Below, piece by piece: positions 1,302-31,500 of a DNA stretch of 32,000 bases. Position 1 is the first letter of the stretch. Each line of letters opens with the position of its first letter. The stretch is from assembly GCF_050872065.1 (NCBI RefSeq), contig NZ_JBNMGD010000012.1, positions 1-32,000 of the forward strand, read 5' to 3'. The position numbers were made by a program, and so were the translations under genes. The DNA is from Methanobrevibacter sp. (GTDB lineage: Archaea > Methanobacteriota > Methanobacteria > Methanobacteriales > Methanobacteriaceae). The notes under the pieces were generated by a model. The model did no database searches. It had not been told where the DNA came from and saw only the letters and a list, made by a program, of their open reading frames with translations.

Positions 1302-1442
1302 TCATTCCTCATTTTTTTGATCCAACATCTGTATTTCATTGCTCATATCATATTAATACATATGTATTAACTCATATCTCACTATGAACTCTATTTAGCA
1401 TCACCTATCTATATTTCTTCATTGAAAATTATAATAATCATT

Positions 1443-1718
1443 ATGTATACTATAGCTATTTTTGATGTTAAATTCAAAACTAACAAAGAGAAAATTGAAA
1501 ACATTTTAAGACACTTTGGACTTAGAAAAATTCAGACAAATACATATATTGGAAAATTAAGTAATGCTAATTTAACTAGTTTTAAAAAAGAAATTAAATT
1601 GGCAATTCCTAAAAAAGATAGCCTATTAATTCTACCAATTTGTGATAACTGCTATTCAAAAAAAGATACATTTGGACGAAGAATAAATTTCAGTGAAAAT
1701 TTGTATAGGGTGTTTTAG
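1443..1718 (+). CDS. cas2: CRISPR-associated endoribonuclease Cas2
   Basis: The track ORF starts at TTG 1422. ATG 1443 gives MYTIAIFDV..., the canonical Cas2 first beta-strand with the conserved Asp. GLRKIQTNTYIGKL and DSLLILPI fit the Cas2 ferredoxin fold. About 91 aa. The TAG stop at 1716-1718 abuts the cas1 ATG at 1720. Confidence 0.8.
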   Translation: MYTIAIFDVKFKTNKEKIENILRHFGLRKIQTNTYIGKLSNANLTSFKKEIKLAIPKKDSLLILPICDNCYSKKDTFGRRINFSENLYRVF

Positions 1719-1719
1719 A

Positions 1720-2715
1720 ATGAATATTCTAATTGAAGGATTCAACAAATCAATTCACAAAAAAGATAATCAACTTGTCATAAAACAAAAAGATATTATC
1801 CTAGATTCCATTAAAGCAGACAAAATATCTAGCATAGTTATAATAGGAAAAGGATATATAACATTTGATGCCCTAACACTAATTGCAAATAATAACATCA
1901 AACTAATTTCAATTGATTATTTAGGTAAATTAAATTATTTAATAGAATCACCAGACTGGAGAAATGTGAAAATAAAAAAACAGCAGTATTTACTAAGTGA
2001 AAATAAAAAAGGTATCAAGATATCCCGTGAAATAATAAAATCAAAAATGATAAACCAAAAATCAACATTAACAACCTTAAACAAGCGCCGTAAAATTAAA
2101 GAAATAGATGAAATAAAAAATAATATTACTCTTCAAATTAATAGATTGAATTCCATTAAACTAACAAATAATCATGAAAAAGTAAAAATGCAAATAATGG
2201 GGTGTGAAGGAAAAGCATCAGCTCATTATTGGAGTGGGATAAAATTATTAATCCCCAAAGATATAGGATTTGAAAAAAGAACCAAAAAACCAACAGACTT
2301 ATTGAATTCCATGCTGAACTATGGATATGCTATTTTGGCAACTGAAATAACCAAATCAATATTAATAAATGGATTAGATCCATATTGCGGTTTCCTCCAT
2401 TTCGACATGGACCAAAGAACAAGTTTAACATATGATTTAATAGAAGATTTCAGACAACAACTCGTAGACAAAACAGTATTAAATCTTATCAATAGAAAAC
2501 AAGTTACAAATAATGATTTAGATAAAAGAAACAAAACTATAAAATTAGAAAAAAGAAAACTGATTATTTCAAAAATTCAAGAAAAACTACACTCAACAAT
2601 AAAATACAATGATGAAGAAGTAACTTACAGCGAAATAATTAATAAACAATCATCAAATTTAGTAAAAACTCTTTTAAATGATGAAAAATTTAAAGGATTT
2701 AATTTGCATTGGTGA
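1720..2715 (+). CDS. cas1: CRISPR-associated integrase Cas1
   Basis: Cas1 hallmarks are present: GCEGKASAHYW (catalytic Glu region), NSMLNYGYAIL, and GLDPYCGFLHFDMDQRTSLTYDLIEDFR (His plus two Asp). The likely start is ATG 1720 after a GGGTG RBS; the track ORF start at 1693 overlaps cas2. Confidence 0.92.
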   Translation: MNILIEGFNKSIHKKDNQLVIKQKDIILDSIKADKISSIVIIGKGYITFDALTLIANNNIKLISIDYLGKLNYLIESPDWRNVKIKKQQYLLSENKKGIKISREIIKSKMINQKSTLTTLNKRRKIKEIDEIKNNITLQINRLNSIKLTNNHEKVKMQIMGCEGKASAHYWSGIKLLIPKDIGFEKRTKKPTDLLNSMLNYGYAILATEITKSILINGLDPYCGFLHFDMDQRTSLTYDLIEDFRQQLVDKTVLNLINRKQVTNNDLDKRNKTIKLEKRKLIISKIQEKLHSTIKYNDEEVTYSEIINKQSSNLVKTLLNDEKFKGFNLHW

Positions 2716-3955: not shown

Positions 3956-4209
3956 ATGGTATTAATTTATAAAACAGAAGATAATGAATATTTTACTTTA
4001 GCAGAATTAGCACAAAAATTTCCAAAAGAGTGGGCTTACTGTTTGAGTTTAAAACGAATATTATCTTAAGTAATATTCAGAACAAAACTTTGGGAAACAG
4101 ATCCAATTGCCTATTATGAATGGAAACGTGAGTGTATTGAACTGAATATGTTACCTGATTTTTTTGGTACTCGTGATAATCCTATTCCTATTGATGAATC
4201 TAAATTATA
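3956..4209 (+). pseudogene. Small ORF split by repeat copy R2
   Basis: ATG 3956 (MVLIYKTEDNEYFTLAELAQKFPKEWAYCL) runs into R2 and stops at the TAA inside the repeat. The same reading frame reopens right after R2 (KLWETDPIAYYEWKRECIELNMLPDFFGTRDNPIPIDESKL) and ends at TAA 4207-4209. Confidence 0.45.
4047..4083 (+). repeat. CRISPR-type repeat R2 (perfect)
   Basis: Identical 37-mer, same orientation as R1. Confidence 0.9.
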
Positions 4210-4229
4210 AAACTTTTTTTTTAAATTTT

Positions 4230-4266
4230 GTTCTGAATATTACTTAAGATAATATTCGTTTTAAAC
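4230..4266 (-). repeat. CRISPR-type repeat R3 (perfect, inverted)
   Basis: Exact reverse complement of the 37-mer, 146 bp from R2. Confidence 0.9.
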
Positions 4267-4306
4267 GTAATAAAAATATGTATGTTAAGGATTGGAGTGA
4301 AAACAA

Positions 4307-5419
4307 ATGGTGGAGAAAAAACTCAAAAAGTCAGATGAAAGATTTGGTCTTGAATTTGAAGTTAAGAAAAATACAAAGAATGCAAACCGTATCGGATTCA
4401 GTAATACATTATTTGATGTTGGTGAAAAAGTCTATGTTCTGTCAGAAGAGCAGCACTATGATATTATAAAACAGATAGATCAGGTTGATGAATACAAAGA
4501 AAGAATAGCTGAACTTGAAACTGAAATAGCTAATGGATTAACAGACAATAATCTTGAAAATGAACTTCAGGAAAAAGATCAAATGATTAACACTCTGAAA
4601 GATAGGGTTGATTCACTTGGAAAAGAACTTGAATCAAATAAATCAGAAGTTAAAGTCCATGATAAAGATGAAATGGAAGAGTTAAAAGAACAGCTTAAAA
4701 GTTCACAGTCTCAGGAAGCTTATTGGAAAAATGCTTATGAAAATCTGATTGATACATCTGATGAATTATCTGCCAGAAATGAATCCCTCATTAAAGAAAA
4801 TGAAAAACTAAGAAACGATAACAATAACATTAACGAAACCAACAAATTGTTAAATGACAATATGATGGGATTAAACGATAACTATAAAGAAACAAAAGAC
4901 GAACTCCAGTCCAATTTTGAAGAAAAGGAAAATGAATTAAAAGAAACCATTGAAAAACAACAATCTCATATAGATGAATTAAATGATAAATTACAATCCT
5001 TATCCAGTCTTAAAGAATATATTCCACCAAAAGAACATTATGAAGCACTTGAGGAATTGAAAGATAAAATAAAAGAAGTTGAAACAGAATTAAACAAAGC
5101 CAATGCTGAAATCAATCTTAAACTATCCAATCAGAAATCTGAACTGGAAATAAAACACACTGAAGAAAAAGCACAAATGCTAATAGCTTACAATCAAGAG
5201 CTTAACAATAACAAATTAAAATATAATGAACTAGCAAAAGATTATAATCATTTACTTGGAGATGCTAATTCATTATCAAGAATAAACACTTTCTTTAATG
5301 GGAAACATAAACTAATTGTTAAAGATAAAGAACCTGTGGAACTTGAAGAGATAGAGGTGGAAAAAGAACCAACAGAAACAATAGAATATGTTCCCAAAGA
5401 CAAAGTAACATTAATATGA
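4307..5419 (+). CDS. Coiled-coil protein (370 aa), function unknown
   Basis: GGAGTGA RBS before the ATG. Long E/K/N/L-rich heptad-like stretches (ELETEIANG..., LKEQLKSSQ..., ELNDKLQSL...). The last 82 nt are duplicated at 6949-7030. Confidence 0.75.
   Translation: MVEKKLKKSDERFGLEFEVKKNTKNANRIGFSNTLFDVGEKVYVLSEEQHYDIIKQIDQVDEYKERIAELETEIANGLTDNNLENELQEKDQMINTLKDRVDSLGKELESNKSEVKVHDKDEMEELKEQLKSSQSQEAYWKNAYENLIDTSDELSARNESLIKENEKLRNDNNNINETNKLLNDNMMGLNDNYKETKDELQSNFEEKENELKETIEKQQSHIDELNDKLQSLSSLKEYIPPKEHYEALEELKDKIKEVETELNKANAEINLKLSNQKSELEIKHTEEKAQMLIAYNQELNNNKLKYNELAKDYNHLLGDANSLSRINTFFNGKHKLIVKDKEPVELEEIEVEKEPTETIEYVPKDKVTLI
5336..5417 (+). repeat. 82-bp direct repeat, left copy (3' end of the coiled-coil gene)
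   Basis: GTGGAACTTGAAGAGATAGAGGTGG...AACATTAATAT matches 6949-7030 at 80 of 82 positions. Confidence 0.9.
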
Positions 5420-5452
5420 ATATTTATTTATTAATATATGAAAGGTGAAACT

Positions 5453-6925
5453 ATGGATAAAGCATCAGAAAAAGTACCTAAAGTATTTATATCTTATTCT
5501 TGGACAAATGAAGAACATATAGAACAAGTTATAGAATTTGCTACATATTTGGTTAATAATCATGTTGATGTCATATTGGATGAATGGGATGCTCCTGAAG
5601 GAATAGACTTAAATTATTTCATGGAAGAAAATGTTAGATCAGAAGACACAGATTTTGTTCTCATAATTTCTGATAAAGAATATGCTCGTAAAGCTAACGA
5701 AAGAACGGGTGGTGTTGGTACTGAAACACAAATTATTAGCAAAAGAGTTTATGAAGATGTAAACCAAACAAAGTTTATCCCAATAGTTTGGCAAAATGAT
5801 GATGATGGAAAACCATGTCTACCAGATTATTTAGCATCTAGAAGATATTTTGATTTAACACCGAAGAATAGATATTCAAATTCTGAAAAAGTATTACGAA
5901 GATTACATGGTATTCCAGAAAATCCAAAACCAAAATTGGGTGAATTTCCTAAGAAATTGTTAGAAACTAATAAATATTATCCCTCGTTAAAAGAAATTAT
6001 CGAAACATTTGATGAAAAAATTGAAAAAAATCCTAAATCAATCAATTCAATTTCAAGACATTTCTTTAAAGATTTTTTACATAATTTTGATGAGTTTAAA
6101 ATAAAATTTCAGACACGAAATGCGTTAGAAATTGCTAATCAATTACACGATAATATTGAAGAGTTTATTCCATTAAGAAATTATTATATTGAATTTATTG
6201 AAAAAATTACTCAAGTTTATGAGTTTGCCCCAGTAGATGGCGATATAATTAAAGAATTATTTGAAAATATTTATTCTAACTATTTTATACCTAAACCTGG
6301 TGAATCTTATATAAGTGAAGATTTTATGAATTTTGACTTTATCGTAAGAGAACTTTTTTTATATACAATTACTATCTCAATTAAAAATGAATATTACCAA
6401 CTTACAAGTAATCTTTTAAACACTCCGTATTTTTTTAATGACCCATATAATTCTAATGATACTAAAACATTTTTAGATTTGGACAAAAGAAGATATGTTC
6501 GTACTGATGAATATTTAACATATTATTGTAAGGAACATAATCTTAATAAATTAACTGGGATGGGACATTTTTTGATTTCAAGAATTCATAAAAATTATGT
6601 AATTGAAGAATTAGTAAACTCAGACATCTTATGTTGTCATATTTCTATAATTAATTTGCAGGATTCCGATGGTTGGTTCCCATTTACATATATTTACAAA
6701 GAAACAAAGTACATGCATTTATATCAAAAATTAATTTCTGAAAGTTATTATAAGAAAGTTAAATGTATCTTTGACATTGAATCTAAAGAAGAATTGGTAA
6801 AGAAGATTAAATATTCTGATGAGTATTTTGGAAAAATGAGATATGGATTTAGAAGTGTTTTCATGAATTATGTTAAACCAATTAGTGAATATATTAATGC
6901 TGATGAAATTGCAAGTAGAAAATAG
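5453..6925 (+). CDS. TIR/SEFIR-like domain protein with a roughly 300-aa uncharacterised C-terminal domain
   Basis: The N-terminus KVFISYSWTNEEH...VDVILDEWD...FVLIISDKEYARKANERTGGVGTETQII...KFIPIVW matches the bacterial TIR-like/SEFIR pattern (FISYSW, DxWD, GGVGxE). ATG 5453 follows an AAAGGTGA RBS; the track start is 5438. Confidence 0.7.
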   Translation: MDKASEKVPKVFISYSWTNEEHIEQVIEFATYLVNNHVDVILDEWDAPEGIDLNYFMEENVRSEDTDFVLIISDKEYARKANERTGGVGTETQIISKRVYEDVNQTKFIPIVWQNDDDGKPCLPDYLASRRYFDLTPKNRYSNSEKVLRRLHGIPENPKPKLGEFPKKLLETNKYYPSLKEIIETFDEKIEKNPKSINSISRHFFKDFLHNFDEFKIKFQTRNALEIANQLHDNIEEFIPLRNYYIEFIEKITQVYEFAPVDGDIIKELFENIYSNYFIPKPGESYISEDFMNFDFIVRELFLYTITISIKNEYYQLTSNLLNTPYFFNDPYNSNDTKTFLDLDKRRYVRTDEYLTYYCKEHNLNKLTGMGHFLISRIHKNYVIEELVNSDILCCHISIINLQDSDGWFPFTYIYKETKYMHLYQKLISESYYKKVKCIFDIESKEELVKKIKYSDEYFGKMRYGFRSVFMNYVKPISEYINADEIASRK

Positions 6926-6948
6926 TTTGTATATACCAATATTTAAAA

Positions 6949-7030
6949 GTGGAACTTGAAGAGATAGATGTGGAAAAAGAACCAACAGAAACAATAGAAT
7001 ATGTTTCCAAAGACAAAGTAACATTAATAT
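6949..7030 (+). repeat. 82-bp direct repeat, right copy
   Basis: 80/82 identical to 5336-5417. It retains the coding frame of the coiled-coil C-terminus (VELEEIDVEKEPTETIEYVSKDKVTLI, then a stop) without an upstream gene body. Confidence 0.9.
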
Positions 7031-7033
7031 AAA

Positions 7034-7564
7034 CTATTCAATTGATTTGAGTATCTCATCCATCAATTCAGAAGTGTTAATGTTATTTTCCTCACCTATT
7101 TCATATTCAATAACAGATCCAACCAGCTTGTCAAGGGATCTATCTTGAATAGCTGAAATGATTCTTAACTTCATGTGAGTTTCAAGATCTACTTTAACAT
7201 TAATTCTTTTTCTGGGATTGCCTTTATTTAATAGCTTATCGTTAATATCATATGTAGAATTGTCTATATCTTTTCTTTTGAACCAGTCATCTTCATTAAC
7301 ATCTTTAAAAGCATCTTCAACATATTTGGCTATATCAATATCTGCAACTTTATCTTCAATAATGGATGTTGCAACTTTTTCTAAACTGGAATCTTTTGAA
7401 GCTGCAATAACTTTTAACTTCTTGTGAGTGTTTGGGAATAGCTTAACAGTTATTTGTTTTCTTTGTGTTTCAATATCGTTAATGTAGTCTTCTTTAACTT
7501 CTTTTATGGCGTTTTCTCTTTGAACTTGTTTTTCAATAAGCTCTTCAATTTTATTGTCTGTCAT
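7034..7564 (-). CDS. Tandem ribbon-helix-helix (CopG/Arc-like) DNA-binding protein
   Basis: Two internal RHH-like units: KQITVKLFPNTHKKLKVIAASKDSSLEKVATSIIEDKV and KRINVKVDLETHMKLRIISAIQDRSLDKLVGSVIEYEI. AGGAGGA RBS upstream. Confidence 0.7.
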   Translation of the reverse strand: MTDNKIEELIEKQVQRENAIKEVKEDYINDIETQRKQITVKLFPNTHKKLKVIAASKDSSLEKVATSIIEDKVADIDIAKYVEDAFKDVNEDDWFKRKDIDNSTYDINDKLLNKGNPRKRINVKVDLETHMKLRIISAIQDRSLDKLVGSVIEYEIGEENNINTSELMDEILKSIE

Positions 7565-7584
7565 GTTATTTTCCTCCTGTATGT

Positions 7585-7619
7585 TTAATAATGTAATTAC
7601 ATTAATAATGTATTTACAT
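7585..7619. promoter_or_regulatory. Tandem palindromic operator-like sites upstream of the RHH gene
   Basis: TTAATAATGTAATTACAT is followed directly by TAATAATGTATTTACAT. The cores are the perfect 12-bp palindrome ATGTAATTACAT (7591-7602) and the near-palindrome ATGTATTTACAT (7608-7619). The sites lie 20-55 bp upstream of the RHH start codon. Confidence 0.5.
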
Positions 7620-7678
7620 AATATATTTTTGTTGATATATAAATATTATGTTATTTTGAAAAATAAGCTGCCCATCTC

Positions 7679-7725
7679 TGATGGACAGGTTGCGACGAGT
7701 GAAACGAGTCGCAATAGGTATATAC
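7679..7725. other. Two adjacent GC-rich hairpins in an AT-rich intergenic region
   Basis: CTGCCCATC-tct-GATGGACAG forms a 9-bp stem with one mismatch. TTGCGAC-gagtgaaacga-GTCGCAA forms a 7-bp stem. Function unknown. Confidence 0.3.
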
Positions 7726-7755
7726 TAAAAAGTTAGTTAATGGTTGGGTTAAAGT

Positions 7756-7773
7756 GACATTAACATTAACGAT
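7756..7773 (+). repeat. Solo left end of the MITE-like element
   Basis: GACATTAACATTAACGAT is identical to the left terminus of copy B (11983-12000). No matching right end follows. Confidence 0.5.
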
Positions 7774-7959
7774 TGATATTTCCTTACTGGAATTATATTT
7801 TCTTACTAGACAGACATCATACTGGCAAATATGATATATTTTTTTTAAAAGTAACTTTATCAGGTTCTTTGAATGATTTTTTACAACTGGTTTTATTAGG
7901 GATTCAAGAGTTTAATTTGTTGATGATTGTTATTAAGTTATTAATTTAATGGAATGGCT

Positions 7960-8072
7960 TTAACATTAACGGCAAGGGTTCTGGAATTGGATTTGGTTTT
8001 CACACTTGGATATATATGCACGAGTTTCAGGAATTAAGTTTTGAAATGGTAATGTTGGATGTTAATGTTAAT
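7960..8072 (+). repeat. MITE-like element, copy A (about 113 bp)
   Basis: Perfect 11-bp terminal inverted repeats: TTAACATTAAC (7960-7970) and GTTAATGTTAA (8061-8071). About 85% identical to copy B by eye. Non-coding. Confidence 0.7.
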
Positions 8073-8128
8073 AGTTTATATCATAACATTTACAAAACTA
8101 GATTTAACAAAATAATGTTTGGATACAT

Positions 8129-9577
8129 ATGTCAAATTATCATTTTTTTAATAGAAAAGAGCTAGAACAAATTCTTGATGAATGCCTTAATAAAACATTA
8201 GGTGAAGTAGATAAGAACAATGTTTTTGAAATAACAAAGACACATCCTAAATATACTGGAATAGCTGGACATGTAATTGAACAATCTGTATTGGGATATC
8301 CTGCAGATACTAGACAAGAACCTGACTTGGATGTTGATGGTGTTAAAACAGAATTAAAAACAACTGGTATTAAATACATAAGAAATAACACTCAATTTGT
8401 TGCTAAAGAACCTATGAGTATTACGGCCGTGTCTCCTCACACTATCGTTAATGAAACATTTGATGATTCTAATTTTTGGCATAAACTAGCTCACTTATTA
8501 TTTGTTTATTATTTATATGACTCACCAACCACTGTTAAAGCTGCAGGATATGCAGACTTTCCAATTAAAGGTTATCAATTTTATGAATTCAATTCAGAGG
8601 ATACAGAAATATTAAAAAATGACTGGACAATAGTTAGAAACTTTATTTCCTGCTTACAGGATAACTATGAGAATTATGAGGATGAATATCCAAGAATATC
8701 TCATGAATTAAGACCTAAGTTGATGTATATTGATACTGCTCCTAAATGGCCACATAATCCAAGATTCAGATTAAAAAGAAGTGTGGTGTCATCTATCATT
8801 CAAGATCACTTTGGTGAATCTTTAGAGCAATTACCTAAAACATATACTTCCTATTCTGAGATTTATGAAACCTGTCATGAGTTGACAGATCAATATAAAA
8901 ATAAACCAATCCATGAACTTGTTGATTTATTGGATATTAAGGTTAATAGAATTAATAAAGCAATTGGAGAACAGATTATTGTTAAAATGTTTGGTGGAAC
9001 ATCAAGGAAAATGCAAAAGATAAAACTATTCAATAGATTAGGAATTATTGGTAAAACATTAACATTAACAGAGAGAGGACTTCGAAAGGAAGATATGAAA
9101 CTGTTTACAATTGATTTTGATGAATTTACTGAAGATATTGAATTTGAAGATTCACAAACCTATGATTACTTTAACAACAATAGATTTTTATCTATAATAT
9201 TCCAAAGGCCTGAAGCTGATGCTGAAATGAAAGATAATATCTTTTTAGGATTTAAAATGCTTACTTTTGAAAGTAGCTTTATTGAAAATGATGTTAAGAA
9301 TACTTGGGAGAGAATTAAGGATTTAATAGTTAATGATAATCTGGAGGATGTTGTTGTCTTAGATAGCCAAGGACAACCTCGTAAAAATAGAAGCGGTAAT
9401 ATAATGAGTGCTCCTAACTTTCCTAAGAGTTCTGAAGGAAATGTATTCGTTAGAGGAACAAGTTCCACATCTGATGAGAAACCATTGACATTGAATGGAA
9501 TAAAAATGTATAGACAACAAATGTGGGTTAAAGGATTGTATATAGTTAATAAGCTCAATGAAGAGGATTATATTTAA
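8129..9577 (+). CDS. Type II restriction endonuclease, Sau3AI/MutH-like (predicted GATC specificity)
   Basis: 482 aa. The N-terminal MutH-like catalytic region is KYTGIAGHVIEQSVLG...EPDLDVDGVKTELKT (D...ELK). Size and the two-domain layout resemble Sau3AI. The gene is paired with a C5-methyltransferase. Confidence 0.7.
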   Translation: MSNYHFFNRKELEQILDECLNKTLGEVDKNNVFEITKTHPKYTGIAGHVIEQSVLGYPADTRQEPDLDVDGVKTELKTTGIKYIRNNTQFVAKEPMSITAVSPHTIVNETFDDSNFWHKLAHLLFVYYLYDSPTTVKAAGYADFPIKGYQFYEFNSEDTEILKNDWTIVRNFISCLQDNYENYEDEYPRISHELRPKLMYIDTAPKWPHNPRFRLKRSVVSSIIQDHFGESLEQLPKTYTSYSEIYETCHELTDQYKNKPIHELVDLLDIKVNRINKAIGEQIIVKMFGGTSRKMQKIKLFNRLGIIGKTLTLTERGLRKEDMKLFTIDFDEFTEDIEFEDSQTYDYFNNNRFLSIIFQRPEADAEMKDNIFLGFKMLTFESSFIENDVKNTWERIKDLIVNDNLEDVVVLDSQGQPRKNRSGNIMSAPNFPKSSEGNVFVRGTSSTSDEKPLTLNGIKMYRQQMWVKGLYIVNKLNEEDYI

Positions 9578-10833
9578 TCTTCTTTTTCAATTACTCCTTC
9601 TAAATATTTTCCTAGCTTTTGAACAATACCTACTACTAAAGCATTACCCATCATAAAATATCTTCTTCTTTCTGTCATAGCTTTAGATTCTATATTAGTC
9701 CAATTATCCGGAAACATTTGTATTCTTTCAGCTTCAACTGGTGTTAATGTTCTATATATGTCTTTTTCTTCATTAACTCCTATGATATGTGAACTTCTGT
9801 TTGTTGTGCTTTCACTTGTGAGCATTGTTCTTGCAGGTGCATCTAAATGATCTGGAAATGCAATAGCTCCTTCTGAATAGCAATAGGTTTCACCATTTGG
9901 TTTTTTCCTTTCAAGTTTTTTAGAACCTTTCAAGTATTTCCATTTCTCAAGTTTTTCACCAGATATAATGTATTTATCATCAAAATTAGTTTCAAGGATG
10001 TCTCCTAATGTTGTAAACTCTCCAGAATAATTTGGTTCAACTTTATATGTATAAACATTACCATTAATCATACATCCTGCATTATAGAAATGAAAATCAA
10101 ACTCATCACTAACGGAAACAATATCTTCATAGTCTTCTTTAGAAATACTTGATTTGCCTTTTTCTAATTGAGTATCTTTAATTGGGAAATTTGTAGCGAA
10201 TATTCCGTTAGTATACACAAGTTGTTCTGCTGAATATTTTATCATGTCTTTAAAGTAATTGGTAGATTTATGATAAGCATAAATGAATACTCTTCTTCTT
10301 TTTTGAGGAAATCCATATTCTGCTGCATTAATTACTCTCCATTCAACTGCATATCCATTATCAAGAAATGACCTTAACATTATTCCAAAGTCACGTCCTC
10401 TTTGAGTTGATGGTGAACGTAATAATCTATCTACATTTTCAAGTAAAACAAATGGAGGTTGTTTGGTTTCAAGGACTTCGGCTATTTCCCACCAGAGAAC
10501 TCCTTTCTTACCTTCAATACCTTTTTCATTGGATAAAGACCTTGCCACTGAATAATCCTGACATGGAAAACCTCCTACAAGTAATGTGTGATTTGGAATG
10601 GTAGTTTTGTCAACTTTGCCAATATCTTCACATACATGATTTTCAGATGCTCCGAATCTTTCAGTATAGCAATCAAATGCTGCCTGTGTTTTAGTGGATG
10701 GTTCCCATTGGTTAGCCCAGATAAAATCCCAATTATCTTTTTCAGTAACTTCATTGCCGTTATATGTTACTTCATTGAATCCACAGCGGAATCCACCAAC
10801 TCCAGCAAATAATTCTACAACTGTCTTATCCAT
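9574..10833 (-). CDS. DNA (cytosine-5)-methyltransferase
   Basis: Motif I ELFAGVGGF, motif IV GGFPCQDYS, motif VI LLENV, motif VIII QKRRRVFI and motif X GNALVV are present. The likely start is MDKTVVELF at 10833 after a GGAGA RBS; the track extends to 10893. The 3' ends overlap the endonuclease gene by 4 nt. Confidence 0.9.
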   Translation of the reverse strand: MDKTVVELFAGVGGFRCGFNEVTYNGNEVTEKDNWDFIWANQWEPSTKTQAAFDCYTERFGASENHVCEDIGKVDKTTIPNHTLLVGGFPCQDYSVARSLSNEKGIEGKKGVLWWEIAEVLETKQPPFVLLENVDRLLRSPSTQRGRDFGIMLRSFLDNGYAVEWRVINAAEYGFPQKRRRVFIYAYHKSTNYFKDMIKYSAEQLVYTNGIFATNFPIKDTQLEKGKSSISKEDYEDIVSVSDEFDFHFYNAGCMINGNVYTYKVEPNYSGEFTTLGDILETNFDDKYIISGEKLEKWKYLKGSKKLERKKPNGETYCYSEGAIAFPDHLDAPARTMLTSESTTNRSSHIIGVNEEKDIYRTLTPVEAERIQMFPDNWTNIESKAMTERRRYFMMGNALVVGIVQKLGKYLEGVIEKED

Positions 10834-10983
10834 AGTAATTTCTCCAATAGTTAATATATTTATAACAAACATATTAATAATTAACGAGATCAATTAAAAA
10901 GTATTAATTAACTTAAAATTAAACTGATATATAAGAATAATTAAATTAAGAATTCAATTCGTTATAGAACATTATAGGAGCAG

Positions 10984-11229
10984 ATGTTTATGGAAAATTT
11001 AGAAAATGTACATGCTATAATTAATACAATAGCTGAAGACCCAAGAGTGGATGTTTCTAAAATAGATGATTATACATTTAATGTTGTTATTAATGGAGAA
11101 CTAATGGATTCATTTGAAAAACTTGGAGAAATCCAAAAGAAGATAAATGATGGTTGTTCTGATGAATATACTCTTAAAACTATTTATGGTGACGGACAAG
11201 ATGCAAAATTAATTTTAGAAAAGAATTAA
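10984..11229 (+). CDS. Hypothetical small acidic protein (81 aa)
   Basis: AGGAG RBS before the ATG. No family recognised. Confidence 0.55.
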   Translation: MFMENLENVHAIINTIAEDPRVDVSKIDDYTFNVVINGELMDSFEKLGEIQKKINDGCSDEYTLKTIYGDGQDAKLILEKN

Positions 11230-11245
11230 ATTCATAGGTCTTACA

Positions 11246-11527
11246 ATGAGTGCTGACATATTTGAAAAGAATAATATAAGATTACCTACTATTGAAGAAG
11301 TTGAGGAAATAGATAATCCTCCAGTTGTAGCACATTTTACCAATGGACTTTGGGATTGGTATGTAATAGCTGGAGAAAAACTTGATGATGATTATCGTTT
11401 ATTAGGATTAGTTAATGGTGATTATAAAGAGATGGGAACATTTACTTTAAAACAATTAGAAAATGTCTCAGCTAAATTAATATCTATTGAAAACATAAGT
11501 CTTCAAGAAGTAAAGTCCAGAATATAA
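11246..11527 (+). CDS. DUF2958-like protein
   Basis: LPTIEEVEEIDNPPVVAHFTNGLWDWYVIAGEKLDDDYRLLGLVNGDYKEMGTFTLKQLE fits the DUF2958 pattern from memory (LP.lys.E...dp.v..kFf.p...WtWY..E....d..fGlV.G.e.ElGyfsL.EL). That family is common on plasmids and conjugative elements. Confidence 0.55.
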   Translation: MSADIFEKNNIRLPTIEEVEEIDNPPVVAHFTNGLWDWYVIAGEKLDDDYRLLGLVNGDYKEMGTFTLKQLENVSAKLISIENISLQEVKSRI

Positions 11528-11528
11528 T

Positions 11529-11906
11529 TTATTTAACATAATCCGTATATTTCATTAATAATCCAATAACTGTAGGTAATGCAGACTCATAACTTGCAAA
11601 TTCTATGTTTTCTTTTTTACCAATATCTATTTCAATTCCTGTAATCCCTTGAATGGTTTCCGTGTTTATACTTTTAATATCTTTGAACTTGATTACTTTT
11701 CTTGGTTTTTGAATTATTAATCTGTCATCTTCGAGAAATAAAGTTGTAGTTATAACTTCTTGTTCTTCTTTAGCTCCGCCTGCAAGAATTCCTGTTGTTA
11801 AAAATAGTGCAGCACTTGCTAAAGCGGTATTGGATTTTTTAGTAATGACCATTTTAATTTCAGCTTTACCTGCTCTTAAAAGTCTTTCAACTTCTGAATC
11901 AACCAT
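11529..11906 (-). CDS. Hypothetical protein (125 aa)
   Basis: AGGTGA RBS, then ATG 11906 (MVDSEVERLL...). The track start at 11915 is the GTG inside the RBS. One central hydrophobic segment. No family recognised. Confidence 0.55.
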   Translation of the reverse strand: MVDSEVERLLRAGKAEIKMVITKKSNTALASAALFLTTGILAGGAKEEQEVITTTLFLEDDRLIIQKPRKVIKFKDIKSINTETIQGITGIEIDIGKKENIEFASYESALPTVIGLLMKYTDYVK

Positions 11907-11982
11907 GATATTCACCTATTAAAATATTGTTTTTATTATTAATTAAATTGATAGATTTATTTTAAGTTGAATTTAATTCATT

Positions 11983-12097
11983 GACATTAACATTAACGAT
12001 AGGGGTTCTATAATTGGATTTGGATTTCGCACTTGGATATAATGTGCAGGGGTTTCGGGAATTAAGTTTTGAATTGGTGATGGTGGATGTTAATGTC
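11983..12097 (+). repeat. MITE-like element, copy B (about 115 bp)
   Basis: Perfect 11-bp terminal inverted repeats: GACATTAACAT (11983-11993) and ATGTTAATGTC (12087-12097). The internal sequence aligns with copy A. Confidence 0.7.
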
Positions 12098-12486
12098 AGC
12101 AGCCAGAATTTTATTGATGTATATATTTATTTTTTTTATTATGTTTGTTCTATATTTTTTTAAATATTTTTTATAATTTGTAATTTAATTTAATATATAA
12201 ATAGTTCGTATCTTTTCTTTTTTTACGTATATTATAAACAGAAATATACGTTTAATTTATATATAAAATAAGAGAATTTTGAAGTTTTTAGTTAAAAATC
12301 CAAAAAAGAACAAGGACATATACATATGTGTATTACAAGTAGTACATTTATCTAAATTAATAAAAAAGTGTATATGTTGCTTTATTATTCATCATATGTT
12401 ACAATTTTGAAAATATTTTTTGGGTGTTAAATGCTTTACAGAAGTTTCTAATATCTTGAATCAATATCAATAGTTATTAATTTAAA

Positions 12487-12605
12487 ACATTAACATTAAC
12501 ATTAACGGAAGGAGTAATGGTTTTGGATTTGGGTTTTAAACTGGGATATATATGAAAGCATTTCTAAAAAGAGTTTTCAAATAGCTATTGGTGAGTATTA
12601 ATGTA
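12487..12605 (+). repeat. MITE-like element, copy C (diverged)
   Basis: Starts ACATTAACATTAACATTAACGG and ends TATTAATGTA. Internal blocks (TTGGATTTGG, GGGATATATATG, GAGTTTTCAA) are colinear with copies A and B, at roughly 65-70% identity by eye. Confidence 0.5.
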
Positions 12606-12754
12606 TCTGTTATTAATCCGCCCCAGTTTACAAATACTTATTCTAAAATATTAGTTCTTGAGCAATTCATTGTCTTTTAGATATTCAATGAATTTCAAAA
12701 TCATTTTTGTTTCACGTTATCCAATAGCAGTTCTGAAAAGTCAGTTACATAATA

Positions 12755-25824: not shown

Positions 25825-27831
25825 ATGAAATCCATGTCCAATGTAGACATTTATACAATAAGTGATGAGTTAAATAATTTATTAAGTGGTGCTAGAGTAG
25901 ATAAATCATTCCAACCTACAAATGATATTGTAGTAATGAGATTCCATGTTCCTGGGACTGGTAGAATCGATTTAGTAATGCAGTGCGGTTCTAGAATACA
26001 TACTAGTCAGTACCCTCTTGAAAATCCGACTACACCACCATCATTTCCCATGCTTTTAAGAAAAAGAATCAAAGGAGCGCATGTTGAAAGCATTAAACAA
26101 CATAATTTTGATCGTGTAATTGAAATTAAAGTTAAAAAAGATAAATATTACACAATAATTGTTGAATTATTTGATAAAGGAAATATAATTCTTTTAGATG
26201 ATAAAAATAATATCATCCAACCATTAAAAAGAAAACAGTTAAGTGCAAGAGATATCAGTTCTAAGCGAGAATACAAATTCCCCGAAGAGAGGGGAATGAA
26301 TCCTATCACAATTACTGAAGAAGAACTAAAGGAATTGTTTGAAAATACTGAAAGCGATGTTGTAAGAACACTTGCAATGAATGGACTTGGAAGTTTATAT
26401 GCAGAAGAAATTATTCAAAGAGCTAATAATGTTATTGAAATAGACAAAAATACACCAACATCACAATTAACCGACACACAAATTAAAGAAATCCATAAAA
26501 GTCTAAATGACTTGTTTAACAGTCTTAAAAACGGATTAATTAAACCACAAATTGTAAAAAAAGATTCAAAAGAAGATGTTGTTCCATTAGATCTTGTTAA
26601 ATATGCTGATTTTGAAAAAACTTCTTATAATACTTTCAATGAAGCCTGTGATGAATTTTATTCAAAAAAAGTAAACAGCAGCATAAAAAATGTAAAAGAA
26701 GCTGCATGGAATAAAAAAGTAAAGAAGTTTGAAAAAAGATTAAGTTTACAACAAGAAACACTTGATAATTTTACAAGAACCATTGAAGAAAGTCAACATA
26801 AAGGAGAAGTAATCTATTCTAATTACTCCACAATTGAAAACATCATAAATGTTGTAAACACTGCATGGAGTAACAACTACTCATTCAAGGAAATTGGTAA
26901 AACACTTAAAAAAGCTAAAAAAGATGGAATGGTAGAAGCTCAAATTTATGAATCAATTGATAAGATGGGTGTTTTAACACTTAATATAAATGATACAACA
27001 TTAAATATAAATCCTAAATTAACAATTCCTGAAAATGCTGAAATATACTATGAAAAAGCTAAAAAAGCAAAAAGAAAAACAAAAGGTGCGTTAATAGCTA
27101 TTGAAAATACTAAAAAACAACTTGAAGATATCAAGTCTAAAAAAGATATGGCAATGGAGCATGTTGCAGTACCTAAAAAAAGAGTTAAAAAAAATTTGAA
27201 ATGGTATGAAAAGCTTAGATGGTTCATTAGCTCTGATAACATATTAGTTGTTGGTGGACGTGATGCTAACAGTAATGAAATGGTTGTTAAAAAATATTTA
27301 GAACCAAATGACATATACTTACACGCAGATATACATGGTGCAAGTTCAACTGCAATAAAATTAAATGGTAATGAATTAAATGAGAATATCATTAAAGAAT
27401 CTGGAGAGTTTGCAGCAGCATTTTCATCTGCTTGGTCAATGGGCTTCACATCACAGGATGTATATTGGGTTCATCCGGACCAAGTTACAAAAACACCGGA
27501 AGCAGGGGAATTTTTAGCCAAAGGATCATTTGTAATAAGAGGTCATCGTAATTATATCAGAGGTGCAAGAGTAAAATTAGCTATTGGAATTGTTGACTAT
27601 GAAGGTAAAAGAATAATGGCAGGTCCAGTTGAATCACTTGAAGCACACTGTGATAATTATGTTGTATTAAAACCAGGATTTACAAAAAAAGAAGCAATAG
27701 CTAAAAAAATATTAAAGAAAATTAATGAAGATGATTTATTAACACTTGACGATATCATAAGAGTGTTACCATCCGGAAAATGTGATATCGACGAAGAATA
27801 TCATTTAAGAAAAAAATATGAGAAAAATTAA
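25825..27831 (+). CDS. NFACT-family (Rqc2/FbpA-like) ribosome quality-control protein
   Basis: N-terminal NFACT-N-like region, a central coiled coil, and the DUF814/NFACT-R block LRWFISSDNILVVGGRDANSNEMVVKKYLEPNDIYLHADIHGASSTAIK. ATG 25825 follows AAAGGTG. Confidence 0.85.
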   Translation: MKSMSNVDIYTISDELNNLLSGARVDKSFQPTNDIVVMRFHVPGTGRIDLVMQCGSRIHTSQYPLENPTTPPSFPMLLRKRIKGAHVESIKQHNFDRVIEIKVKKDKYYTIIVELFDKGNIILLDDKNNIIQPLKRKQLSARDISSKREYKFPEERGMNPITITEEELKELFENTESDVVRTLAMNGLGSLYAEEIIQRANNVIEIDKNTPTSQLTDTQIKEIHKSLNDLFNSLKNGLIKPQIVKKDSKEDVVPLDLVKYADFEKTSYNTFNEACDEFYSKKVNSSIKNVKEAAWNKKVKKFEKRLSLQQETLDNFTRTIEESQHKGEVIYSNYSTIENIINVVNTAWSNNYSFKEIGKTLKKAKKDGMVEAQIYESIDKMGVLTLNINDTTLNINPKLTIPENAEIYYEKAKKAKRKTKGALIAIENTKKQLEDIKSKKDMAMEHVAVPKKRVKKNLKWYEKLRWFISSDNILVVGGRDANSNEMVVKKYLEPNDIYLHADIHGASSTAIKLNGNELNENIIKESGEFAAAFSSAWSMGFTSQDVYWVHPDQVTKTPEAGEFLAKGSFVIRGHRNYIRGARVKLAIGIVDYEGKRIMAGPVESLEAHCDNYVVLKPGFTKKEAIAKKILKKINEDDLLTLDDIIRVLPSGKCDIDEEYHLRKKYEKN

Positions 27832-30291: not shown

Positions 30292-31299
30292 CTATTTTCC
30301 AACTAAAGTTGAATTTAAGATTTCATTCCAAGATTCAGAATGGATATTTTCTAAATTCAAACCAGTTCTTGTTAAAATTCTAATATTTTGTGAACATGCT
30401 TTTACACAAGCCCCACATAAATTACAGAAAGATAAATCAGTTACAGATTTTCCATCAACAATTGAAACTGCATTACATGGACAAACATCCATACAAGCAT
30501 GGCAAGAATCACCTTTACAGATTTTTTCTTCACTTTCAACCAATTCTAATTTTCCATCAAATGGTTTAGTTATATCAATTGCATCAACTGGACAAACTTC
30601 AGAACACCATGAACAGTATACGCATGAATTATCTAAAATCATTACGTTACCAGTAATTTCTGGAACTTCAATCTCCTCAATTAACATACAAGTAGAACAT
30701 ATTTGCTTAATAGCATTTTCAGGACAAATTCTCTTACAAATACCACAGAAAATACATTTAGAATCATCTACTTCAATAGACCAATTTAAATTACCATCAG
30801 AAGAAGGAATATTTTTAATTATAATTGCTTCAGCAGGACACATGTCTGCACAAAAAGAACAATATATACACTCATCTTTATTTATATCAATTTCCCCTCT
30901 GACTAAATCTACAGGATTTGGAAGTTTCCTTTCAAAGATTATTGCATCGCTAGGACATACATTGTGACATTTACCACAGTATATACATTCCCCATCATCA
31001 ACAGCAGTTCCTTTATTCCAGACAGGATAAGAATCCATGTTTTTAATATCTTCACCATCAACAAGCAAAGATAATGCATCAAATGGACAAGCAACTGAAC
31101 ATAATCCACAGAACACACAGGAATCTTTTTTAATAGAAACTAAATCCATTTCAATTAATCCACGAGCTACTGGAACTATAGGTCCTAATCTTAAAGAGGA
31201 AGTTGGACAAACATCCGCACAAATTCCACAACCAACACAATATCCATCATTATATGATAAACTACGGTGTTCTTCACCATCTCTTTCTATATTAAACAT
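30292..31299 (-). CDS. Polyferredoxin with eight [4Fe-4S]-type motifs (FwdF/MvhB-like)
   Basis: Eight CxxCxxCxxxC(P)-type motifs, including CVGCGICADVCP, CVFCGLCSVACP, CIYCGKCHNVCP, CIYCSFCADMCP, CIFCGICKRICP and CVYCSWCSEVCP, plus two variants. Confidence 0.85.
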   Translation of the reverse strand: MFNIERDGEEHRSLSYNDGYCVGCGICADVCPTSSLRLGPIVPVARGLIEMDLVSIKKDSCVFCGLCSVACPFDALSLLVDGEDIKNMDSYPVWNKGTAVDDGECIYCGKCHNVCPSDAIIFERKLPNPVDLVRGEIDINKDECIYCSFCADMCPAEAIIIKNIPSSDGNLNWSIEVDDSKCIFCGICKRICPENAIKQICSTCMLIEEIEVPEITGNVMILDNSCVYCSWCSEVCPVDAIDITKPFDGKLELVESEEKICKGDSCHACMDVCPCNAVSIVDGKSVTDLSFCNLCGACVKACSQNIRILTRTGLNLENIHSESWNEILNSTLVGK

Positions 31300-31308
31300 T
31301 TATATCCC

Positions 31309-31500
31309 TCATGCTTTAGATATAGCTTGATTTGGACAGTTTTGAATGCAGAGATCACAATCATCACAATTTTCAGGAACGATACATACATCGCCATCTT
31401 TTTCTATGATTGCACCTTGCTCACAAAGTTTAATGCATAATCCTTGTACAGGACAATCTTGAATATGTCCACATAAATCAGAATCAATTTTTACTGCCAT
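31309..31500 (-). CDS. Small ferredoxin-like 4Fe-4S protein
   Basis: 63 aa. CDDCDLCIQNCP plus an atypical N-terminal Cys cluster. Lies immediately upstream of the polyferredoxin. Confidence 0.75.
   Translation of the reverse strand: MAVKIDSDLCGHIQDCPVQGLCIKLCEQGAIIEKDGDVCIVPENCDDCDLCIQNCPNQAISKA

What the first reader, a model, noticed from the sequence alone, without database searches (positions are those of the whole stretch)
5336..7030. An 82-bp direct duplication (80/82) of a gene's 3' end brackets the TIR-like gene as a single-gene cassette
The last 82 nt of the coiled-coil gene, up to the stop codon, recur at 6949-7030 immediately after the TIR-like gene. The unit 5418-7030 (1613 bp: the TIR gene plus one repeat copy) therefore looks like a discrete insertion. 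82 bp is far too long for a transposon target-site duplication. It is typical of attL/attR sites left by site-specific integration, or of a duplication-mediated cassette exchange. Yet no integrase or transposase lies within the unit. Both copies end in AACATTAATAT, which resembles the ACATTAAC termini of the nearby MITE-like element; that resemblance may be coincidental in AT-rich DNA.
Basis: seen in the sequence. Interest (0 to 1): 0.7.

Follow-up and report, generated by a model that had tools for sequence, protein, structure and literature searches.

The report
Defence gene insertion scar in provirus remnant
A known anti-virus defence gene (bacterial-type SEFIR) has been spliced between two abutting genes of a decayed virus in a gut methanogen, and the 82-85-bp repeat is most likely the scar of sloppy recombination, not a dedicated integration site.

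Summary
An independent assembly seen in 7 samples spans both junctions. Copy 1 is the last 27 codons plus stop of a virus-derived coiled-coil (CC) gene. Copy 2 is a non-coding vestige whose two changes hit conserved residues. It abuts the stop of a convergent RHH gene. Between them lies one gene, a full-length bSEFIR defence protein (PADLOC E=1.4e-88).

About 15 distinct Methanobrevibacter virus or provirus loci show the empty site: one copy, with CC and RHH stops 1-60 nt apart. The sister lineage (94% nt) carries a different 248-aa gene at the same place. Its right junction is a patchwork: 46 nt of another viral gene's 3' end plus a decayed 51-nt CC end.

So the single-gene insertion reading holds. 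The attL/attR reading does not:
- no recombinase, inverted termini or hairpin;
- the duplicated length differs between events;
- nothing of the 82-mer lies next to SEFIR homologues elsewhere.

Best explanation: illegitimate, out-of-register or template-switch recombination at a viral accessory-gene hot spot. This is a new member of a known kind and of modest interest.

The parts
4307..5419 (+). Coiled-coil (CC) gene, 370 aa. It is virus-derived and intact here. Homologues (60-75% aa) lie next to a PeiW-like pseudomurein endoisopeptidase in Methanobrevibacter viruses and proviruses, e.g. Caudoviricetes sp. vir323.
5336..5420 (+). Repeat copy 1: the functional last 27 codons plus TGA stop of the CC gene. 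It keeps the consensus residues, including the invariant Pro363.
5421..5428 (.). Left junction filler, about 7-8 nt of unassigned origin, between the end of the repeat and the start of recognisable SEFIR-locus homology.
5429..6927 (+). Cargo of foreign origin: bSEFIR defence gene (CDS 5453-6925, 490 aa) with only 24 nt of its own leader (RBS GGTGA) and 2 nt after the stop. It is 80-83% nt identical to SEFIR genes that sit in unrelated defence islands.
6928..6948 (.). Right junction filler, 21 nt of unassigned origin (TGTATATACCAATATTTAAAA). It shares the 8-mer TACCAATA with the 132-aa-gene fragment at the L002 junction, which may be chance.
6949..7033 (+). Repeat copy 2: vestigial duplicate of the CC 3' end, still in its native adjacency to the RHH stop. 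Both internal substitutions are non-synonymous at conserved positions (E to D; invariant P to S). It is therefore not under coding selection.
7034..7564 (-). Convergent 176-aa gene with two weak ribbon-helix-helix matches. It is conserved next to the CC gene in all empty sites. In this lineage its stop lies 1 nt from the CC-type stop.
7565..7810 (.). Upstream region of the RHH gene. It marks the end of the first block of viral backbone shared with L002/L033 (window 6973-7810, 90% nt).
4047..4266 (.). 220-bp element with 44-nt, 98% complementary terminal inverted repeats (MITE-like). Homology to the L002-type provirus begins exactly at 4267, so it marks the left edge of the virus-derived block.

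Best explanation
The window holds a decayed Methanobrevibacter provirus backbone (4267-7810 and 12119-12619) embedded in a chromosomal defence island. In the ancestral virus, the coiled-coil gene and a convergent RHH gene abut stop-to-stop. A tightly trimmed bSEFIR anti-virus gene, copied from a chromosomal defence island of a related methanogen, was joined in at that point by illegitimate recombination. The left joint lies at or 1-3 nt after the CC stop codon. The right joint lies 82-85 nt further upstream in a second copy of the backbone. This could arise by an out-of-register crossover between two viral genome copies, or by template switching during replication or break repair. That stagger leaves the CC 3' end on both sides of the insert. 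The product survived because both flanking genes stay whole. The downstream copy is a non-functional scar that is beginning to decay.

Shown:
- it is an insertion, with empty sites and alternative cargo in relatives;
- the repeat boundaries are sharp;
- there is no recombinase or terminal structure;
- the independent event in the sister lineage has a patchwork junction;
- copy 2 is vestigial.

Inferred:
- the precise recombination mechanism;
- that the two 36-85-nt identical stretches now make the cassette prone to loop-out by homologous recombination.
For: - Empty sites: about 15 distinct loci have CC stop and RHH stop 1-60 nt apart with a single copy.
- Independent event in the closest relatives (L002, L003, L033, L048, L049, L051; CC 94% nt). 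The order there is CC, 248-aa gene, 62 nt, a 46-nt internal fragment of the 3' end of the virus's 132-aa gene (93% to L008 12128-12173), a roughly 51-nt decayed CC end (13/51 differences including a frameshift), then RHH. Vestigial gene ends stitched together are a hallmark of illegitimate or template-switch joining. The duplicated length also differs from the window's.
- No integrase or transposase hit in any window ORF scanned (all of 90 aa or more except two internal antisense ORFs).
- No hairpin in the repeat, z between -0.01 and -0.94.
- No inverted repeat at the cargo ends.
- Cargo homology to other SEFIR loci spans only 5429-6927. Those loci have other neighbours (DUF4062, FRG) and no 82-mer.
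- Copy 2's two substitutions hit conserved residues, one of them invariant in 29 homologues. The copies differ by 2/82, whereas dS to the L002 lineage is 0.29-0.42. The event is therefore recent and separate.
- The same region shows other rearrangements by short homology: hsdS fused in frame to the last 74 CC codons, and an R-M cassette that sits elsewhere in L015.
Against: - No near-identical donor was found, so microhomology at the joints cannot be read.
- Both independent insertions begin within about 1-5 nt of the CC stop. Random joining would explain that only with strong selection for intact flanking genes.
- No empty site was recovered inside the 90%-or-closer clade. All empties are 78% nt identical or less.
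- The first two-thirds of the 82-mer show the highest synonymous-site conservation in the CC gene (0.85-0.88 against a mean of 0.71). This hints at a cis-acting nucleotide element that could be a recombination or termination site.
- The 36-nt perfect core would also allow homologous (Campbell-type) integration of a circle.
Confidence: 0.58

Rival explanations
1. Cassette integration through the 82-mer itself. A small circle carrying SEFIR plus one copy of the CC 3' end integrated into the CC end of an empty virus. The crossover was either a single homologous (Campbell-type) one or was made by a trans-acting site-specific recombinase, so the repeats are attL/attR.
For: - A direct repeat of a gene's 3' end, with the upstream copy keeping the gene intact, is the classic att geometry.
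- The copies share a 36-nt perfect core.
- The start of the 82-mer is unusually conserved at synonymous sites.
- Methanobrevibacter smithii is reported to make small gene-sized extrachromosomal circles lacking mobile-element genes (PMC12134362).
Against: - No recombinase in the unit or in any window ORF scanned.
- The second insertion at the site has a different repeat length and a junction containing a fragment of a third gene.
- SEFIR homologues elsewhere carry no 82-mer, so a source for a circle with that homology is missing.
- The reported M. smithii circle has no direct repeats at its borders.
- Nothing related was found in IMG/VR.
Confidence: 0.15
2. Nuclease-driven hot spot. Repeated breaks at the CC/RHH junction are repaired with capture of ectopic DNA, and the duplication comes from fill-in of long staggered ends. 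The breaks could be made by a homing endonuclease such as the SegE-like GIY-YIG gene next to RHH in vir323. Alternatively they could be made by whatever enzyme acts on the ACATTAAC-ended elements.
For: - A GIY-YIG/SegE-like gene lies directly beside RHH in vir323.
- Nearly all empty sites carry ACATTAAC(ATTAAC)G, the terminus of a 115-nt repeated element, exactly between the two stops.
- The motif is 8-fold enriched in the window.
- Two independent insertions start within a few nt of the same point.
Against: - There is no such nuclease gene in the window.
- The window/L002 lineage lacks the intergenic motif; the stops are 1 nt apart.
- No enzyme is known for the elements.
- This is a cause of the hot spot rather than an alternative to illegitimate joining.
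Confidence: 0.12
3. Remnant of a tandem gene duplication. Copy 2 is the tail of a second, largely deleted CC paralogue, and SEFIR merely sits between the paralogues.
For: Copy 2 keeps the reading frame and a stop codon.
Against: - No similarity to CC upstream of 6949: score 22 against a shuffle mean of 25.
- The SEFIR stop is only 23 nt before copy 2.
- About 15 relatives have a single CC directly abutting RHH.
Confidence: 0.03
4. Assembly artefact: a mis-join or collapsed repeat in a metagenome-assembled genome.
For: The source is probably a MAG. The SEFIR and RHH proteins are recorded as Methanobrevibacter sp. on a 35-kb contig.
Against: An independent Logan contig present in 7 samples reproduces 5363-6999 at 100%, including both junctions and both copy-specific SNPs.
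Confidence: 0.02

Closest known systems
Accessory-gene ('moron') and defence-gene hot spots in temperate phage and provirus genomes, including the hypervariable defence/counter-defence locus of Methanobrevibacter virus MSTV1 and relatives (PMC11375127)
   Same: Presence/absence and cargo-swap polymorphism between conserved flanking genes of related viruses. The cargo is a stand-alone defence gene. The host is a gut Methanobrevibacter.
   Different: This is a different virus group (vir323-like) and a different locus, at the convergent CC/RHH gene ends. The backbone here is only a remnant inside a chromosomal island. The junction also keeps an unusually clear 82-85-bp duplication scar.
Mosaic junctions made by illegitimate recombination in tailed-phage genomes (the Hendrix/Hatfull model; cited from my own knowledge)
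   Same: The joints fall at gene boundaries. The junctions carry vestigial fragments of neighbouring genes, there are no recombination sites, and selection keeps only products with intact genes.
   Different: The model is usually inferred from sharp homology breaks. Here both the duplicated target and, in L002, a stitched 46-nt + 51-nt patchwork are still visible.
attL/attR repeats of integrative elements that target and restore the 3' end of a gene (tRNA or protein-coding)
   Same: The direct repeat equals the 3' end of the target gene, and the upstream copy keeps the gene complete.
   Different: There is no integrase. The unit is 1.6 kb and holds a single gene. The repeat length is not reproducible between events, and the element is not seen at any other att-like site.
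bSEFIR single-gene anti-phage system (Millman et al., bioRxiv 10.1101/2022.05.11.491447)
   Same: N-terminal SEFIR domain scoring above TIR. Full-length match to the PADLOC bSEFIR profile (E=1.4e-88) and to phrog_11745 (E=2.6e-102). Similar size class, about 490 aa.
   Different: Archaeal host, inside virus-derived DNA. Activity and the interaction residue were not tested here.
Repeat-flanked small cassettes that shuffle by loop-out and re-insertion, e.g. PeSL cassettes of T4-type phages (cited from my own knowledge)
   Same: A small gene is bracketed by short direct repeats. In principle this allows excision as a circle and homologous re-insertion into genomes with one repeat.
   Different: The repeat here is a one-off duplication of coding sequence rather than a dispersed regulatory repeat family. 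The dispersed 115-nt ACATTAAC elements flanking the neighbouring R-M cassette are the better analogue.

Membership tests
Site-specific integrative element (attL/attR) | Tyrosine or serine recombinase encoded in or next to the element | tested here: not met
   The unit holds only the SEFIR ORF. No integrase, recombinase or transposase Pfam hit in any window ORF scanned (all of 90 aa or more except the antisense ORFs 27048-27449 and 31037-31330).
Site-specific integrative element (attL/attR) | The same repeat boundaries (core site) in independent insertions | tested here: not met
   The window duplicates 82-85 nt. L002-type loci retain about 51 nt, preceded by a 46-nt fragment of another gene.
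Site-specific integrative element (attL/attR) | Element carries its att copy in other locations, or in a donor or circular form | tested here: not met
   13 loci with SEFIR homologues of 74-79% aa identity have no 82-mer. No related locus in IMG/VR. Circular forms could not be tested without reads.
Transposon or MITE with target-site duplication | Terminal inverted repeats and a short fixed-length TSD | tested here: not met
   No inverted repeat at 5421/6948. The duplication is 82-85 nt and differs between events.
Integron-type gene cassette | attC-like imperfect palindrome at the cassette end | tested here: not met
   The 85-mers and the whole 6920-7045 region fold no better than shuffles, z between -0.94 and +0.12.
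Tandem gene duplication remnant | Homology extends beyond the repeat into the rest of the gene | tested here: not met
   Local alignment of 6701-6948 against CC 4701-5335 scores 22, with shuffle mean 25.1 and maximum 38.
Viral accessory-gene (moron-like) insertion at a hot spot | Empty site in related genomes, with the same flanking genes directly adjacent | tested here: met
   Loci L004-7, L011-15, L017-21, L023-26 and L028-30.
Viral accessory-gene (moron-like) insertion at a hot spot | Different cargo at the same site in other relatives | tested here: met
   A 248-aa gene in L002, L003, L033, L048, L049 and L051.
Viral accessory-gene (moron-like) insertion at a hot spot | Own promoter and terminator for the inserted gene | not tested
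   Only 24 nt of native leader came with the gene. An AT-rich TATA-like stretch lies at 5420-5440, but the tools offer no archaeal promoter model.
bSEFIR defence system | N-terminal SEFIR domain scoring above TIR, plus a full-length match to the family profile | tested here: met
   Pfam SEFIR 8.5e-17 against TIR_2 3.9e-14 at residues 14-146. PADLOC bSEFIR E=1.4e-88 over residues 6-489. This criterion is the one described.
bSEFIR defence system | Protection against viruses; requirement for the SEFIR-SEFIR interaction residue | not testable with these tools
   Needs infection assays. Only the Bacillus homologue has been tested.

The most novel reading that the evidence does not exclude
The 3' end of the coiled-coil gene is a genuine cis-acting capture site of vir323-like Methanobrevibacter viruses. 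Its first roughly 50 nt are more conserved at synonymous sites than any other part of the gene. The junction next to it usually carries the ACATTAAC terminus of a dispersed 115-nt element. Under this reading, single defence genes are captured and exchanged there as small circles bracketed by copies of that site. A trans-acting viral or host recombinase, or homologous recombination, would do the joining. That would amount to an integron-like cassette system in archaeal viruses.
Probability: 0.1. Interest if true: 0.7.

Novelty: new member of a known kind. Interest (0 to 1): 0.35.

Why it matters
The locus gives an unusually legible before/after picture of how a gut methanogen's virus-derived DNA picks up a single defence gene. 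The set includes an empty site, two independent fillings and junction scars that still show which pieces were joined. It places a bSEFIR system inside archaeal viral DNA. It also marks the convergent CC/RHH gene ends as an accessory-gene hot spot in a poorly known group of Methanobrevibacter viruses. If the 82-mer turned out to be an active recombination site, it would be a new cassette-capture mechanism, but the present evidence points to ordinary illegitimate recombination.

Tried and rejected
- Exact look-ups of the CC protein and of the 495-aa SEFIR ORF found nothing. The 490-aa start worked.
- Longer CC homologues (430-520 aa) were checked as possible CC-cargo fusions. They are only coiled-coil length variants with the normal C-terminus.
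- The hsdS-CC fusion proteins were first taken for a third cargo type with a 222-nt duplication. Their loci lack the CC body and RHH, so they are deletion or fusion remnants and not insertions between repeats.
- The apparent roughly 62-nt second copy in L002 shrank to about 51 nt, because its first 11 nt belong to a fragment of the 132-aa gene.
- The idea that the window's 21-nt filler is the same 132-aa-gene fragment rests on one shared 8-mer (TACCAATA). I treat it as unproven.
- The idea that copy 2 is kept as the RHH terminator: a T5 tract lies in its reverse complement, but vir323 lacks that tract. It remains speculation.
- Rfam found nothing in the window. The 115-nt element shows no covarying structure.
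- The phage collection holds only vir323. IMG/VR holds no relatives of SEFIR or of the 248-aa gene.
- GC content does not set the cargo apart: 0.22-0.30 against about 0.28 in the flanks.
- The last two context look-ups, aimed at finding an empty site in the 90%-or-closer clade, returned only L002-type loci.
Full report
**Observation.** The 82-mer at 5336-5417 recurs at 6949-7030 with 2 mismatches. No dinucleotide-preserving shuffle of the window gives even two matches. Ungapped extension gives 85 nt at 82/85 (5336-5420 / 6949-7033). Copy 1 is the last 27 codons plus the TGA stop of a 370-aa ORF (4307-5419). Copy 2 keeps the frame and a TAA stop, and ends 1 nt before the stop of a convergent 176-aa ORF (7034-7564, minus strand). 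An independent Logan contig seen in 7 samples (L001, 1637 bp) is 100% identical to window 5363-6999. It carries both junctions and both copy-specific variants, so the arrangement is not a mis-assembly. The contig's ends fall inside the 36-nt perfectly identical core, as expected for a k=31 graph.

**The cargo.** The ORF between the copies has an N-terminal SEFIR domain (E=8.5e-17) that outscores TIR_2 (3.9e-14). It matches the PADLOC bSEFIR profile over its whole length (E=1.4e-88) and phrog_11745 (E=2.6e-102). The 490-aa form starting at 5453, preceded by GGTGA, is the one on record. It is named 'SEFIR domain-containing protein [Methanobrevibacter sp.]'. bSEFIR is an experimentally shown single-gene anti-phage system from Bacillus, with homologues reported in archaea.

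The nearest other homologues are 74-79% identical at the protein level and 80-83% at the nucleotide level. They sit in unrelated defence-island contexts next to DUF4062 and FRG genes, with no coiled-coil gene nearby. Nucleotide homology to them spans only window 5429-6927, which is 24 nt of leader, the ORF and 2 nt after the stop. That leaves 7-8 nt and 21 nt of unassigned filler at the two joints. None of those loci contains anything like the 82-mer.

**The surroundings.**
- The coiled-coil (CC) protein has more than 100 homologues. One is in Caudoviricetes sp. vir323, whose host is recorded as Methanobacteriales. There it lies beside a PeiW-like pseudomurein endoisopeptidase in a genome that also encodes a terminase and tail protein.
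- Genome and metagenome scans place the family in Methanobrevibacter from ruminant and human guts.
- The window shares with the closest provirus contigs (L002/L033 type) only 4267-5420 (94% nt), 6973-7810 (90%) and 12119-12619 (85-87%). The left edge coincides with a 220-bp inverted-repeat element at 4047-4266.
- The rest of the window is chromosomal: CLC channel, Cas2/Cas1, MatE, radical SAM, DUF2070, NFACT.
- The CC-SEFIR-RHH block is therefore a provirus remnant inside a defence island. The island also holds a MutH/Sau3AI-like restriction enzyme and a C5 methylase.

**Comparative test.** In about 15 distinct loci the CC stop is followed within 1-60 nt by the RHH stop, and the 82-mer occurs once. 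These are L004-7, L011-15, L017-21, L023-26 and L028-30, with CC 63-78% identical. This is the empty site.

The closest relatives are L002, L003, L033, L048, L049 and L051, from different samples. They carry a different 248-aa gene, with no family hit in Pfam, PADLOC or PHROGs, at the same place. Its right junction is informative. After the gene come 62 unassigned nt. Next is a 46-nt internal piece of the 3' end of the virus's 132-aa gene (L002 6006-6051 = L008 12128-12173, 93%), in its native orientation. Then comes a roughly 51-nt decayed CC end, with 13/51 differences including a 1-nt insertion. Last is RHH.

There is no similarity to CC upstream of copy 2.

**Relative ages.** Synonymous divergence between the window and L002 is 0.29 for CC and 0.42 for RHH. 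The window's copies differ at 2 of 82 positions. Both changes are non-synonymous at conserved residues. One of them replaces a proline that is invariant in 29 homologues. Copy 2 is therefore a young, unconstrained vestige. The SEFIR event is recent and separate from the older L002-type event.

**Mechanism.** A site-specific or transposase-type mechanism finds no support:
- no recombinase or transposase hit in any window ORF scanned (all of 90 aa or more except two internal antisense ORFs);
- no terminal inverted repeats;
- no attC-like hairpin;
- different duplicated lengths in the two events;
- a stitched-together junction in L002.

These features fit illegitimate joining. That means an out-of-register crossover between two copies of the viral backbone bridged by foreign DNA, or serial template switching during replication or break repair, followed by selection for products with both flanking genes intact. 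In this lineage the two stops are 1 nt apart. Any insertion there must either hit that single position or carry a duplication.

The region shows other rearrangements of the same kind:
- hsdS half-genes fused in frame, at one identical junction, to the last 74 CC codons in chromosomal loci;
- an R-M cassette bracketed by 115-nt repeated elements that lies downstream of RHH here but upstream of CC in L015 (82.6% nt).

I put about 0.58 on this explanation.

**What keeps the rivals alive.**
- Both insertions start within a few nucleotides of the CC stop.
- The first two-thirds of the 82-mer have the highest synonymous-codon identity in the gene: 0.85-0.88 against a mean of 0.71.
- Most empty sites carry ACATTAAC(ATTAAC)G, the terminus of the dispersed 115-nt element, exactly between the two stops. 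The motif is 8-fold enriched in the window.
- vir323 has a SegE-like GIY-YIG endonuclease gene next to RHH.
- M. smithii is reported to produce small gene-sized DNA circles, though without flanking repeats.

A recombination-prone or nuclease-targeted site, or homologous integration of a circle, therefore cannot be excluded. I give these roughly 0.15 and 0.12.

**Comparison with what is known.** Hypervariable loci with defence and counter-defence genes are already described for Methanobrevibacter viruses of the MSTV1 group. Defence-gene hot spots and mosaic junctions made by illegitimate recombination are standard in phage genomics (my own knowledge). This case adds a new locus and virus group, a bSEFIR cargo in archaeal viral DNA, and an unusually legible scar. 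It is a new member of a known kind and of moderate interest.

Noticed in passing
window 7963-8068, 11984-12096, 12487-12605; also L004, L012, L013, L015, L026 (alignment A4): A dispersed element of about 115 nt. It has ACATTAAC(ATTAAC)G ... GTTAATGT inverted termini and a highly conserved core, CGATATATATGAAAGGGTTTC, which is TATA-box-like. There are 3 copies in the window and 2-3 were aligned from each of five related virus contigs. ACATTAAC occurs 17 times against 2.05 expected. Only the terminal 9 bp pair and there is no covariation, so it is not a structured RNA. It could be a MITE or a mobile promoter/operator cassette.
   Followed up: partly
window 7941-12096 versus L015 2314-6065: The restriction enzyme, C5 methylase and two small ORFs are bracketed by two direct copies of the 115-nt element. 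The same bracketed cassette (82.6% nt) lies upstream of the CC gene in provirus contig L015, but downstream of RHH here. This is a repeat-flanked R-M cassette that has moved.
   Followed up: partly
CC/RHH intergenic region of loci L004, L011, L012, L020, L023-L026, L030, L032: In almost all empty sites the few nucleotides between the two convergent stop codons are (A)ACATTAAC(ATTAAC)G(A/T)TAGC. That is the left terminus of the 115-nt element. It is conserved across lineages whose CC genes are only 63-75% identical. It may be an operator, a terminator or a solo element end.
   Followed up: partly
L008-L010, L022, L027; proteins P0109-P0116: Half hsdS genes (type I specificity subunit) with different target-recognition domains are all fused in frame at the same junction (QQIF[TA]QKL[KR]F|NELAKDYN) to the last 74 residues of the viral CC protein. 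The 247-aa gene follows. These sit on chromosomal contigs of up to 1.6 Mb. One locus also has a full hsdS in inverted orientation, which suggests a shuffling hsdS locus that has swallowed a provirus fragment.
   Followed up: partly
L002 about 5085-5110, also L003, L048, L051: All L002-type contigs from independent samples share frameshifting 1-nt deletions about 100 nt before the CC stop, giving a 337-aa product. In those proviruses the duplicated C-terminal segment is therefore no longer translated in frame.
   Followed up: no
window 5315-5389 (CC codons 337-361): Synonymous codon identity among 15 CC genes peaks here: 0.85-0.88 against a gene mean of 0.71. This suggests a nucleotide-level constraint overlapping the start of the 82-mer. 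It might be the 3' flank or terminator of the convergent RHH gene.
   Followed up: partly
window 1422-2715: Cas2 and Cas1 genes overlap each other and lie next to the island. Tandem Repeats Finder detects no CRISPR array anywhere in the 32-kb window, and no other cas genes were seen.
   Followed up: no
window 4047-4266: A 220-bp element with 44-nt terminal inverted repeats that are 98% complementary. It is unrelated in sequence to the ACATTAAC elements. It sits exactly at the left edge of the virus-derived block, directly upstream of the CC gene.
   Followed up: no
L004 11872-12810 (vir323): A free-standing GIY-YIG (SegE-like) endonuclease gene lies immediately beside the RHH gene in vir323 but is absent from other relatives. 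This is another presence/absence polymorphism in the same variable region.
   Followed up: no
L035-L047: The nearest SEFIR homologues are consistently followed by a 495-aa FRG-domain gene and/or preceded by a DUF4062 gene. This suggests multi-gene defence islands from which the window's SEFIR was cut out alone.
   Followed up: no
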